NCBI RefSeq assembly: GCF_041248615.1
Contig: NZ_CP158426.1
DNA length: 64,000 nt
Origin: Escherichia coli
GTDB taxonomy: Bacteria > Pseudomonadota > Gammaproteobacteria > Enterobacterales > Enterobacteriaceae
Strand: one strand, 5' to 3'
A program made the position numbers. Within the stretch, counting starts at the first letter, position 1. Each line of letters opens with the position of its first letter. Of this stretch, positions 27,001 through 30,000 are shown piece after piece.

Positions 27001-30000
27001 TACTCTACTGTTCGCCCGTATTTGTTAAATATAGCTATTATTGAAAACGAAATACTACCTGAACCGATCGCTAGTACTGCCTTCGCTATTATTCATCCAT
27101 ATACGGCGATGGATGCTAATTTCATTTATTATTATCTACGTTCTCCGGTATTTGTTTGTTATGTTGAAAATTGTCAGACAGGGGTTGCCTATCCAGCAAT
27201 CAATGACAAACAATTTTTTTCTGGAATAACTCCAGTTCCTCCATCCTTGGAACAAGTTCGCATCGCAAACAAAATCAAAGAATTAATGTCCCTCTGCGAC
27301 CAACTGGAACAGCAATCCCTGACCAGTCTGGACGCACATCAACAACTGGTTGAAACCCTGTTGGGAACGCTGACTGACAGCCAAAACGCCGAGGAACTGG
27401 CTGAAAACTGGACGCGTATTAGCGAGCATTTCGACACACTATTTACCACCGAAGCCAGCGTGGATGCGCTAAAACAGACCATTCTGCAACTGGCGGTAAT
27501 GGGTAAACTTGTGCCGCAGGATCCGAATGACGAACCTGCCTCTGAACTGCTCAAACGAATTGCGCAGGAAAAAGCACAACTGGTGAAAGACGGGAAAATA
27601 AAAAAACAAAAACCGTTGCCGCCGATTAGCGATGAGGAAAAACCGTTTGAACTGCCGGATGGGTGGGAGTGGTGTCGTATCGTTGATTTAGCAATTGTAG
27701 GTACAGGCGCAACACCTTCTCGTGATGAGCCCAACTATTGGAAAAATGGAGTAATTAATTGGGTGACAAGTGGAGAAACTTGCTTACCTTTTATTCAAAA
27801 CACCACCGAACATATTACCCAAAAGGCTGTTGATGAAACAAATGTTTCAATCTATCCACCAGGAACTCTTATTATTGCAATGTATGGACAAGGAAAAACA
27901 AGAGGGCAAATCACAGAGTTATTAATAAGTGCTGGAACAAACCAAGCATGCGCAGCCATTCGATTAATCGAAACGGATAATGAGCATCGTAAATTTATAA
28001 AACTTTTTTTTGAAAAGTCTTATGATGATTTACGTAGTTTAGCCGCTGGAGGTGCACAGCCAAATCTAAATGTAGCAAAAATATCACAAACTGTTATACC
28101 ATTGCCCCCTAAAAGAGAACAAAATCGGATCGTTTCTATTGTGGGGGAGTTATTAATTTATTGCGATAAATTACGCAAAAATATCCAGACCGCCCAACAA
28201 ACCCAACTGCACCTTGCAGATGCACTAACTGACGCGGCGATAAACTAATTTTCTCGCCCTCAAAAAAACCAATAAAGCGGCTCAATAGCCGCTTTATTAA
28301 CATCACCAAAAATTATATTTCACGCTAATTTTCATCTTATTTTCATTAATTTTTAGCTGGACTTTCCCTGTATTTACTGATGATATATCCAGGTATTTAG
28401 CGCGGTGCGGATGTGCGCCAACACACCCACACCGCTCATCACAATCCCTATTTCACGAGAATAGTAATCATGACTGACACGCATTCTATTGCACAACCGT
28501 TCGAAGCAGAAGTCTCCCCGGCAAATAACCGTCAATTAACCGTGAGTTATGCGAGCCGCTACCCGGATTACAGCCGTATTCCCGCCATCACCCTGAAAGG
28601 TCAGTGGCTGGAAGCTGCCGGTTTTGCCACCGGCACGGCGGTAGATGTCAAAGTGATGGAAGGCTGTATTGTCCTCACCGCCCAACCACCCGCCGCCGAA
28701 GAGAGCGAGCTAATGCAGTCGCTGCGCCAGGTGTGCAAGCTGTCGGCGCGTAAACAAAAGCAGGTGCGGGAATTTATTGGGGTGATTGCGGGTAAACAGA
28801 AAGTCGCCTGATACATTGACCCGGTAGCGCCAGTGCTACCGGGTATTATTCGCCACGTTATACCAACGCGTTCTCCATCTGTTTTTCAAATGCCTGACGA
28901 ATTAATCCCATAATGTAAGGAAGTTGTGCGAGGTCGCTGAAACCAATTTCCACATCACCATTGCCCCAGCGCCCAACATTTGTCACATCTTTGGCAATAC
29001 CTTTCGGATCGACCAGTTCATGAAACTGCATATTAAGCGACAATCGCAGTCGGCTTTTTTGCGGCACAACATCAACAAAATTCGTTTCAGCTTTAAACGC
29101 AATATATAGCTTCAATACTTCCTGCGTGATCCCTGCGTCCAGGCGCATAACTTCATCGCGAAGATGATCGAATAACACTCGGCTATGCGAACCATCAGCA
29201 AGAAAAGGAAAATCATTCAGGCTGTAACTGGTTTTGTTTTCAGGCTGCCCCCGATAAACAGCTAAAACCTCTTCAGGAAGAGCAGGCGCTTGCCAAACCT
29301 GAACCGCAAGCTCCGCCAGACGATCGGCACGGGCATGAATGGCGGCTTCATCCCATTTTTCGCACTGTCCAAGACCGATATTCAAATAGAGCGGGCTATG
29401 TTTAAAGCCGTCTTCAATATCGCGTTTTTCCGCGAAAGGTCTGTCACTGTAGCGGGAGTTATAGCGCGTTAAAGTGAGATTCCCCAACGTATGTAACAGT
29501 TCTTTATGCACACGCTGCCAGTCGCTTCCCAGCTCTTCACGCCATTTAGCCGACAGATTTTCGTTCTGCGGCATAATATGCTCAATCGTAAACTCTTCCA
29601 CGCGCTCTCTGCGTTTATCGTTTTCCAGTCGTCGTAACCAGTAGCTGCGACTACGGAAGTTATAGAGATCGCGAACTTTTAATTCCCGTTTAAATTCATC
29701 ATCGTTGGGGAAACGACGATATGAAGGCAGATTCAGAAAATGTACCTGAATACTTTCCAGATATTTTTCTTTAATAATGACCTTATAAAAGGTAGCAAAC
29801 GTCTTGTTAAGAGAATTTGTCGGAATCGCACATACTGCACGGCGGAAAACATAAGATTCAATTAAACGAATTATGCTCAGGAAATCTTCGTGAGGCAAAT
29901 CGCCATTTTTATAGTCATGATAAAGCGCCAGTAAGAAAGGATACGCCACATCGACCTTTAACTCGCGCAAATCCTGAAAAGCCGTAGCAAGCGATTTGTC

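What the first reader, a model, noticed from the sequence alone, without database searches (positions are those of the whole stretch)
28377..28811. symE toxin retained next to hsdS with a degenerate LexA-like box
SymE (113 aa) is intact and the SymR antisense RNA is expected across its 5' end. The best LexA-like sequence upstream (ctgatgatatatccag) deviates from consensus at 4 positions, so SOS control may be weakened or the true box lies elsewhere. Conservation of symE at the edge of a variable defence locus is of interest for toxin-linked island maintenance.
Basis: partly seen in the sequence, partly recalled or inferred. Interest (0 to 1): 0.3.

Follow-up and report, generated by a model that had tools for sequence, protein, structure and literature searches.

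The report
Ordinary symE–SymR locus, normal LexA box
This is the well-known E. coli symE toxin gene with its SymR antisense RNA and its usual DNA-damage (LexA) operator; the operator that looked degenerate is one base away from the tested K-12 site and is the commonest version in E. coli, so the locus is ordinary.

Summary

**What is there**
- symE (28470-28811, 113 aa, 96% identical to K-12) is intact.
- SymR (28399-28475, minus strand) matches Rfam RF01809 at 88 bits (threshold 61). Its -10 element is identical to the one validated in K-12.
- The 16-mer ctgatgatatatccag (28377-28392) is the core of the 20-mer TACTGATGATATATCCAGGT (28375-28394).

**Why the box is not degenerate**
- It aligns column for column with the K-12 yjiW/symE LexA operator and differs by one base (A to C at 28389).
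- On a matrix built from 18 validated SOS boxes its heterology index is 9.4, against 7.9 for K-12. That lies inside the leave-one-out range of validated boxes (0.6-12.6).
- It is the best LexA-like site in the whole 64 kb window, and the next best near symE scores 20.7.
- This exact box is in 1976 complete E. coli genomes; the K-12 box is in 437. O157:H7 EDL933 carries it, and there symE rises 2.5-fold with ciprofloxacin.
- In other genera the base is A in 47 of 50 loci, so C is a derived, Escherichia-specific allele that may weaken the operator modestly.

The link between symE and restriction islands was published in 2007. The finding is already known and of low interest.

The parts
26503..28248 (+). 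hsdS, type I restriction-modification specificity subunit (581 aa). It is the upstream neighbour of the symE cassette.
   Evidence: ORF. Pfam Methylase_S, 96.5 bits. Annotated 'restriction endonuclease subunit S' in the 99.98%-identical record NZ_OW967178.1.
28268..28301 (.). GC-rich hairpin between hsdS and symE. It is followed by a T-run when read on the minus strand. It looks like an intergenic terminator; it is not conserved with K-12.
   Evidence: Terminator-like site. It explains the weak sub-threshold Rfam hits (IS128, sraL). This part of the intergenic region does not align convincingly with K-12 (about 40% identity before the block that starts near 28339).
28339..28807 (+). Conserved symE-symR cassette: promoter, LexA box, SymR and the symE coding sequence. 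Homology to K-12 and other E. coli with different flanking genes starts and stops at these edges.
   Evidence: The K-12-type matches cover query positions 140-608 of window 28200-28900. Alignment A1.
28358..28363 (+). TGGACT, the probable -35 element of the symE promoter. This is inferred from conservation, not mapped.
   Evidence: CTGG and the T at 28363 within the CTGGACT motif are invariant across 18 loci from 11 named genera. A strict sigma-70 consensus scan found no promoter here, so the assignment is inference.
28375..28394 (.). LexA operator (SOS box) TACTGATGATATATCCAGGT. It is orthologous to the K-12 yjiW/symE operator TACTGATGATATATACAGGT.
   Evidence: Alignment with K-12. HI 9.43 against 7.94 for K-12; the published K-12 value is 7.9 (PMC11228462). 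Best site in the window. CTG-N10-CAG sits at the same place in 50 of 54 symE loci of other Enterobacterales.
28389..28389 (.). Single-base difference from K-12 inside the operator (K-12 A, here C). It turns the one perfect half-site ACAG/CTGT into CCAG/CTGG.
   Evidence: The exact window box (C) is in 1976 genomes, a further C-bearing variant (ATGTCCAGG) in 323, and the K-12 box (A) in 437. Across other genera: A in 47, C in 2, T in 1 of 50 loci.
28399..28475 (-). SymR antisense RNA (77 nt). It is complementary to the symE 5' leader, the ribosome-binding site and the first six bases of the coding sequence.
   Evidence: Rfam RF01809, 88.1 bits against gathering 61, full-length model match. Two hairpins, -38.5 kcal/mol, z = -6.0.
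28482..28488 (-). symR promoter -10 element, embedded in the symE coding sequence. The plus strand reads CATTCTA; the minus strand reads TAGAATG.
   Evidence: Kawano et al. 2007 abolished SymR by changing CATTCT to CACTCC. CATTCT is present at 28482-28487, and the block is identical to K-12. ATT(C/G)TATT is conserved across genera.
28470..28811 (+). symE coding sequence (113 aa plus stop).
   Evidence: Annotated 'endoribonuclease SymE' (WP_001589603.1) in the near-identical record.
28858..30951 (-). Intact GmrSD-type (type IV) restriction enzyme gene, 697 aa. It is the downstream neighbour and occupies the place of mcrBC in K-12.
   Evidence: ORF. Pfam GmrSD_N, GmrSD_C and DUF5655. K-12 and strain B have mcrB here.

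Best explanation
The region is the standard chromosomal symE-symR module of E. coli, in its commonest allelic form.

- **Transcription.** symE is transcribed from a weak promoter whose core is covered by one LexA operator (28375-28394). LexA therefore represses it until DNA damage triggers LexA self-cleavage.
- **Antisense control.** SymR is a stable 77-nt RNA made constitutively from a promoter inside the symE coding sequence. It pairs with the whole 5' leader, the ribosome-binding site and the start codon of the symE mRNA, and it blocks translation. Lon protease removes SymE protein that is still made.
- **The operator.** It differs from the K-12 operator by one base. That change replaces its only perfect CTGT half-site with CTGG, a variant common in genuine SOS boxes. 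At most this is expected to loosen LexA binding a few-fold, not to abolish SOS control.
- **The neighbours.** hsdS on one side and a GmrSD gene on the other are swappable cassettes of the restriction ('immigration control') region. The symE cassette is a roughly 470-bp conserved island between them.

**Shown here:** gene, RNA and operator identity; orthology to K-12; allele frequencies; cross-genus conservation.
**Taken from the literature:** LexA, SymR and Lon control in K-12; SOS induction in EDL933.
**Inferred:** that LexA binds this exact allele; the exact -35/-10 positions.
For: **Identity**
- SymE_toxin Pfam hit; 96% identity to K-12 SymE.
- SymR at 88.1 bits, above the Rfam gathering score, with a strong fold.
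- The symR -10 element is identical to the experimentally mutated K-12 element.

**Operator**
- One substitution relative to K-12.
- Kawano 2007, citing Fernandez de Henestrosa 2000, states that the yjiW promoter has a LexA site and is damage-induced, and that LexA, SymR and Lon act additively.
- My matrix, built from 18 boxes in PMC3009722 Table 4, reproduces the published K-12 HI (7.94 against 7.9). It gives 9.43 for this box. That falls between ruvA (8.5) and ftsK (10.0) and is better than dinB (11.8) and polB (12.6) in leave-one-out scoring.
- ruvA and cho have CTGG in both half-sites.
- It is the best site in 64 kb, and no alternative exists upstream.

**Population**
- Exact box in 1976 genomes; K-12 box in 437; a further C-bearing variant in 323.
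- Present in O157:H7, strain B and others.

**Function of this allele**
- EDL933 has the identical box, and its symE rises 2.5-fold with ciprofloxacin (PMC11125564 Table 1).

**Conservation**
- CTG-N10-CAG lies 91-99 nt (three loci about 139 nt) upstream of the ATG in 50 of 54 loci from other Enterobacterales.
Against: - No binding or expression measurement exists for this isolate.
- The substituted base is A in 47 of 50 loci of other species, so it is normally under constraint. The change removes the only perfect half-site. HI rises by 0.4-1.5 units depending on orientation and matrix, so some weakening is plausible.
- symE mRNA induction is small in every dataset (1.5-fold with AZT in K-12; 2.5-fold in EDL933). 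These data therefore cannot rank the two alleles.
- The -35/-10 assignment is inferred: the consensus scan found no promoter, and the published figure could not be read.
- The biochemical activity of SymE is disputed. A 2022 study found no RNase activity and instead found DNA binding and nucleoid condensation (as summarised in PMC11894785).
Confidence: 0.87

Rival explanations
1. The A-to-C change materially weakens LexA repression. In this strain, and in most E. coli, symE transcription is then leaky or induced very early, and control rests mainly on SymR and Lon.
For: - The change hits a position that is A in 47 of 50 loci of other species and removes the only CTGT half-site.
- HI rises from 7.9 to 9.4.
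- A further variant in 323 genomes, including strain 536, reaches HI 11.8. That pattern would fit relaxed constraint on the operator in E. coli.
Against: - HI 9.4 is still inside the range of established operators, and ruvA and cho work with CTGG in both halves.
- EDL933, with the same box, still shows ciprofloxacin induction of symE.
- The allele is carried by most E. coli that have the gene, so it is at least tolerated despite the toxicity of SymE.
Confidence: 0.1
2. The real LexA operator of this symE lies somewhere else, and the sequence at 28377-28392 is a chance look-alike.
For: The bare CTG-N10-CAG pattern is frequent: 24 in the window against 12.5 expected.
Against: - The site is orthologous to the K-12 operator.
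- It is the best-scoring site in the whole window.
- The next best site within 200 nt upstream scores HI 20.7.
- The box is positionally conserved in 50 of 54 related loci.
Confidence: 0.01
3. The palindrome is conserved mainly because it overlaps the core promoter of symE, or binds another factor. LexA control would then be a K-12 peculiarity.
For: - The box sits between the putative -35 and the start of the transcript, so promoter constraints overlap it.
- The left half-site is almost never the canonical CTGT: 22 CTGA, 27 CTGG and 1 CTGT.
Against: - The invariant bases are exactly the LexA-contact triplets CTG and CAG at the correct 10-nt spacing.
- LexA-dependent expression is reported in K-12, and SOS induction is reported in O157.
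Confidence: 0.02

Closest known systems
symE-symR (yjiW-ryjC) of E. coli K-12, a type I toxin-antitoxin pair under LexA, SymR and Lon control (Kawano, Aravind & Storz 2007, PMC1891008)
   Same: - Same gene: 108/113 aa identical.
- Same antisense RNA, position and promoter -10 element.
- Same operator position and 19 of 20 operator bases.
- Same place in the chromosome, just after the hsd genes.
   Different: - One operator base (A to C at 28389).
- Five amino-acid changes.
- About 11 substitutions in the SymR/leader region.
- Different neighbours: an EcoAI-family type I system and GmrSD here, against EcoKI and mcrBC in K-12.
LexA operators of ruvAB and cho (CGCTGGATATCTATCCAGCA, CACTGGATAGATAACCAGCA)
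   Same: They are genuine SOS boxes in which neither half-site is the canonical CTGT, as in the box here. Their heterology indices are similar (7.9-8.5 leave-one-out, against 9.4 here).
   Different: Their half-sites are CTGG/CTGG. Here they are CTGA/CTGG, and CTGA is not seen among the 18 boxes used.
Other SOS-induced type I toxin-antitoxin pairs of E. coli: tisB-istR1 and dinQ-agrB
   Same: A toxin gene repressed by LexA at the promoter and by a small RNA after transcription (named).
   Different: Those toxins are small membrane peptides, and their RNAs are encoded beside the target rather than fully overlapping its 5' end. SymE is a 113-aa soluble AbrB/MazE-like protein.

Membership tests
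SymE toxin family (Pfam PF08845) | Sequence match to the family model above its curated cut-off | tested here: met
   76.7 bits against a cut-off of 29, covering residues 20-71. 96% identical to K-12 SymE.
SymE toxin family (Pfam PF08845) | Toxicity on over-expression, and the molecular activity (RNA cleavage versus DNA binding and nucleoid condensation) | not testable with these tools
   Literature only: Kawano 2007; Thompson 2022 as summarised in PMC11894785.
SymR antitoxin RNA (Rfam RF01809) | Covariance-model score above the gathering threshold over the full model | tested here: met
   88.1 bits against 61, model positions 1-77 of 77, E = 8.7e-17.
SymR antitoxin RNA (Rfam RF01809) | Encoded antisense to the symE 5' leader, ribosome-binding site and start codon, from a promoter inside the symE coding sequence | tested here: met
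   SymR lies at 28399-28475 on the minus strand and overlaps the ATG at 28470. The CATTCT element at 28482-28487 is identical to the validated K-12 -10 element.
SymR antitoxin RNA (Rfam RF01809) | The RNA is actually made and represses SymE synthesis | not testable with these tools
   Needs a northern blot and a reporter. Shown only for K-12.
LexA regulon operator (E. coli-type SOS box) | CTG-N10-CAG with an AT-rich spacer, scoring within the range of validated boxes | tested here: met
   HI 9.43. Leave-one-out range of 18 validated boxes is 0.6-12.6. Best site in 64 kb.
LexA regulon operator (E. coli-type SOS box) | Orthology to an experimentally established operator | tested here: met
   19 of 20 bases identical and the same position as the K-12 yjiW/symE box. 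The K-12 site is described as a LexA site.
LexA regulon operator (E. coli-type SOS box) | Position overlapping the core promoter, so that binding blocks RNA polymerase | tested here: inconclusive
   The box lies between the conserved TGGACT (28358-28363) and the 3' end of SymR (28399). No transcription start is available, and the consensus scan found no promoter.
LexA regulon operator (E. coli-type SOS box) | LexA binds it, and the gene is damage-inducible in a LexA-dependent way | not testable with these tools
   Indirect only: EDL933 has the identical box, and its symE rises 2.5-fold with ciprofloxacin. LexA dependence has been shown only for the K-12 allele.
Post-segregational-killing (addiction) module that stabilises its island | A labile antitoxin and a stable toxin or toxin mRNA, so that loss of the locus kills the cell | not testable with these tools
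   - Kawano 2007 report that SymR is 'unexpectedly stable' and that SymE is degraded by Lon. That is the opposite of the addiction pattern.
- The cassette is absent from about 47% of complete E. coli genomes.
- It is IS1-truncated in strain LST200A.

The most novel reading that the evidence does not exclude
The operator base at 28389 is A in nearly all other Enterobacterales. It has been replaced by C in about 84% of the E. coli genomes that match one of the three box alleles counted, and this destroys the only perfect LexA half-site. If that lowers LexA affinity several-fold, then K-12, on which all symE regulation work rests, is atypical. Most E. coli would express symE at a lower damage threshold and rely more on SymR and Lon for safety.
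Probability: 0.25. Interest if true: 0.2.

Novelty: already known. Interest (0 to 1): 0.08.

Why it matters
It matters little. The locus, its antisense RNA, its LexA control and its association with restriction islands have been described since 2000-2007.

One small useful point comes out of the check. The K-12 operator is the minority allele in E. coli (437 genomes, against 1976 with the allele seen here and 323 with a further variant). Quantitative statements about LexA repression of symE taken from K-12 may therefore not transfer exactly to most strains. The check also guards against scoring SOS boxes by counting mismatches to the idealised palindrome: CTGG/CCAG half-sites are normal in working operators.

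Tried and rejected
**Literature sources that did not help**
- I looked for the original heterology-index matrix or a site list. PMC6590174, PMC8072944 and PMC2680408 with its supplement gave none. One paper look-up (PMC12527982) failed on a disallowed search term and was not repeated.
- I therefore built a matrix from the 18 boxes printed in PMC3009722 Table 4. It reproduces the published K-12 symE value.
- A text search for the K-12 box sequence itself found no paper.
- Thompson et al. 2022 (PMC9018529) is not held, so it is cited only through a review.

**Scans that were uninformative**
- A strict sigma-70 scan found no promoter on either strand of 28200-28900. The symE -35/-10 positions therefore stay inferred.
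- The sub-threshold Rfam hits at 28257-28444 (IS128, sraL, L20 leader) were rejected. All are far below their gathering scores, and at least IS128 and sraL are anchored on the intergenic hairpin.

**Other LexA-like sites rejected as chance**
- 22722-22741 (HI 13.1, inside hsdR) and 29226-29245 (HI 13.2, inside the GmrSD gene). About one site with HI of 12 or less is expected per 64 kb.

**Hypotheses rejected**
- A second operator upstream of symE.
- That the C allele is tied to a particular flanking cassette. Strain B has the C allele with EcoKI-type hsd and mcrBC, while K-12 has the A allele in the same context.
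Full report
**1. What is in the sequence**

The ORF starts with ATG at 28470 and its stop codon ends at 28811, giving 113 aa. It matches Pfam SymE_toxin at 76.7 bits against a cut-off of 29. It is 108/113 identical to K-12 SymE.

Upstream lies a 581-aa hsdS (26503-28248, Methylase_S). Downstream, on the other strand, lies a 697-aa GmrSD-type restriction gene (28858-30951).

The window is an E. coli chromosome. Over 18.7 kb it differs at 3 positions from NZ_OW967178.1. That record is annotated yjiA, DUF262 protein, hsdR (EcoAI family), hsdM, hsdS, symE, GmrSD, yjiS, yjiR.

**2. SymR**

Rfam finds SymR (RF01809) at 28399-28475 on the minus strand. The score is 88.1 bits against a gathering score of 61, over the full 77-position model. 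The RNA folds into two strong hairpins (-38.5 kcal/mol, z = -6.0 against shuffles).

Kawano et al. 2007 abolished SymR in K-12 by changing CATTCT to CACTCC inside the symE reading frame. CATTCT is present at 28482-28487, within a stretch identical to K-12 from 28470 to 28530. The element ATT(C/G)TATT is conserved across genera. The refutation test 'absence of the SymR promoter' therefore fails: the promoter is there.

**3. The LexA box**

Alignment with K-12 W3110 puts it exactly on TACTGATGATATATACAGGT. There is one difference, A to C at 28389.

K-12's box is the yjiW/symE LexA site. According to Kawano 2007, Fernandez de Henestrosa et al. 2000 established it, and symE repression by LexA, SymR and Lon is additive. 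A 2024 RNA-seq study lists it with heterology index 7.9 and 2.5-fold lexA dependence.

**4. How bad is the fourth deviation?**

I built a Berg-von Hippel/Lewis-type heterology index from the 18 SOS boxes printed in PMC3009722 Table 4.

- It gives 7.94 for the K-12 symE box, equal to the published 7.9. It gives 9.43 for the box here.
- In leave-one-out scoring the 18 validated boxes span 0.6-12.6. A score of 9.43 falls between ruvA (8.5) and ftsK (10.0), and is better than dinB (11.8) and polB (12.6).
- The change converts the half-site CTGT into CTGG. CTGG makes up 9 of the 36 half-sites in the set, and ruvA and cho have it on both sides.
- The rise of 0.4-1.5 HI units, depending on orientation and matrix, corresponds at most to a few-fold change in predicted affinity. 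That conversion is inference from the Berg-von Hippel model, not a measurement.
- From memory, and not checked here: Lewis et al. 1994 placed the limit for LexA binding at an HI of about 12.6-15.

**5. Is the true box elsewhere?**

No. Scanning all 64 kb on both strands, this site ranks first (HI 9.43) and the next scores 12.28. First-order Markov simulations give 0.11 sites this good per 64 kb. Within 200 nt upstream of the ATG, the second-best site scores 20.7.

The bare pattern CTG-N10-CAG is common (24 in the window). Specificity comes from the full 20-mer and its position.

**6. Population and phylogeny**

Exact 34-mer searches of 5426 complete E. coli genomes were used. With a 28-base word, each search can only hit its own allele.

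| Box allele | Genomes |
|---|---|
| This box (ATATCCAGG) | 1976 |
| K-12 box (ATATACAGG) | 437 |
| Third allele, also with C (ATGTCCAGG, e.g. strain 536; HI 11.8) | 323 |

- About 2760-2870 genomes carry the region at all.
- C is therefore present in about 84% of the genomes counted, and K-12 carries the minority form.
- O157:H7 (H2495 and EDL933), BLR(DE3) and E-1246 have exactly the box seen here.
- I also examined symE loci recovered from other species' genomes (55 loci in 54 usable contexts; Pseudocitrobacter, Kosakonia, Pantoea, Citrobacter, Salmonella, Kluyvera, Raoultella, Klebsiella, Chimaeribacter and others). CTG-N10-CAG is present at a fixed distance from the ATG in 50 of them.
- In those 50, the base before CAG is A in 47, C in 2 and T in 1. 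The two C loci are E. whittamii and an Escherichia-like metagenome bin.
- A is therefore ancestral, and C is an Escherichia-specific derived allele.
- The other half-site is almost never canonical (CTGA 22, CTGG 27, CTGT 1). An imperfect operator is thus a family trait.

**7. Does the C allele still respond to damage?**

EDL933 carries the identical 20-mer. Its symE mRNA rose 2.5-fold two hours after ciprofloxacin (PMC11125564 Table 1). For comparison, K-12 symE rose 1.5-fold with AZT.

This is indirect evidence and does not rank the alleles. It does argue against loss of SOS control.

**8. Context and the 'island maintenance' idea**

Homology between genomes with different neighbours begins at about 28339, just upstream of a conserved CTGGACT that is probably the -35 element. 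It ends at the symE stop codon, about 28807. The cassette is therefore promoter plus operator plus SymR plus coding sequence.

Its neighbours vary:

| Strain(s) | Upstream | Downstream |
|---|---|---|
| K-12, B | EcoKI-type hsdS | mcrBC |
| This window, O157, 536 | EcoAI-family hsdS | GmrSD |
| E-1246 | hsdR | yjiS-like gene |
| LST200A | hsdS | IS1, which truncates symE |

- About 47% of complete genomes have no match.
- Kawano et al. 2007 already noted the association of SymE genes with restriction-modification systems and mobile islands, and suggested selfish behaviour.
- They also found SymR 'unexpectedly stable' and SymE Lon-labile. That is the opposite of a classical addiction module.
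- Nothing here adds support to a maintenance role.

**9. Mechanism caveat**

RefSeq names the protein 'endoribonuclease SymE'. According to a 2024 review, Thompson et al. 2022 found no RNase activity. They showed non-specific DNA binding with nucleoid condensation on over-expression. The regulatory picture above does not depend on which activity is correct.

**10. Verdict**

The feature is already known. Its only mildly new aspect is that the K-12 operator is the minority allele and that the common E. coli allele is a derived, slightly weaker-scoring one.

Noticed in passing
window 28858-30951 (minus strand): The GmrSD-type restriction gene is one intact 697-aa ORF here (GmrSD_N, GmrSD_C and DUF5655). 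In O157:H7 the same gene (97% identical) carries a 1-nt deletion at nt 801 and is annotated as two genes. RefSeq annotates the sequence-identical copy in NZ_OW967178.1 as a 388-aa CDS plus a pseudogene fragment, which looks like an annotation artefact.
   Followed up: partly
window 28268-28301: A 15-bp-stem hairpin in the hsdS-symE spacer is followed by a T-run on the minus strand. It sits downstream of SymR and could stop read-through from SymR, or from hsdS on the other strand. It is not shared with K-12, and it produces weak false Rfam hits (IS128, sraL).
   Followed up: no
L063 (E. coli LST200A) about 4001-4165, then IS1 at 4181-4878: In this strain only the symE promoter, the SymR region and the first roughly 34 nt of symE remain. 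An IS1A element follows, and the rest of symE through yjiS and yjiR is missing. This is a natural 'antitoxin-only' remnant.
   Followed up: partly
loci L003-L057, about 90-140 nt upstream of symE homologues: Across Enterobacterales the symE LexA box keeps one canonical half-site (ACAGG) and one non-canonical half-site (CTGA or CTGG; CTGT in only 1 of 50). This suggests long-term selection for an intermediate-affinity operator, or a constraint from the overlapping promoter.
   Followed up: partly
L005 and L008 (MAGs labelled 'Bacillota bacterium'): Two metagenome bins labelled Bacillota carry symE loci 94-96% identical to E. coli. These are most likely Escherichia contigs mis-binned into those genomes.
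   Followed up: no
window 20605-22278 (minus strand): A DUF262-domain gene lies between yjiA and hsdR, where K-12 has mrr (the mrr position is recalled from memory). It would be a second GmrSD/DUF262-type gene in the same restriction region.
   Followed up: no
window 26503-28248: The hsdS product contains an internal repeat: LVPQDPNDEPASELLKRIA...KIKKQKPLP...EEKPFELP.GWEW occurs twice. This is the usual two-half architecture of type I specificity subunits.
   Followed up: no
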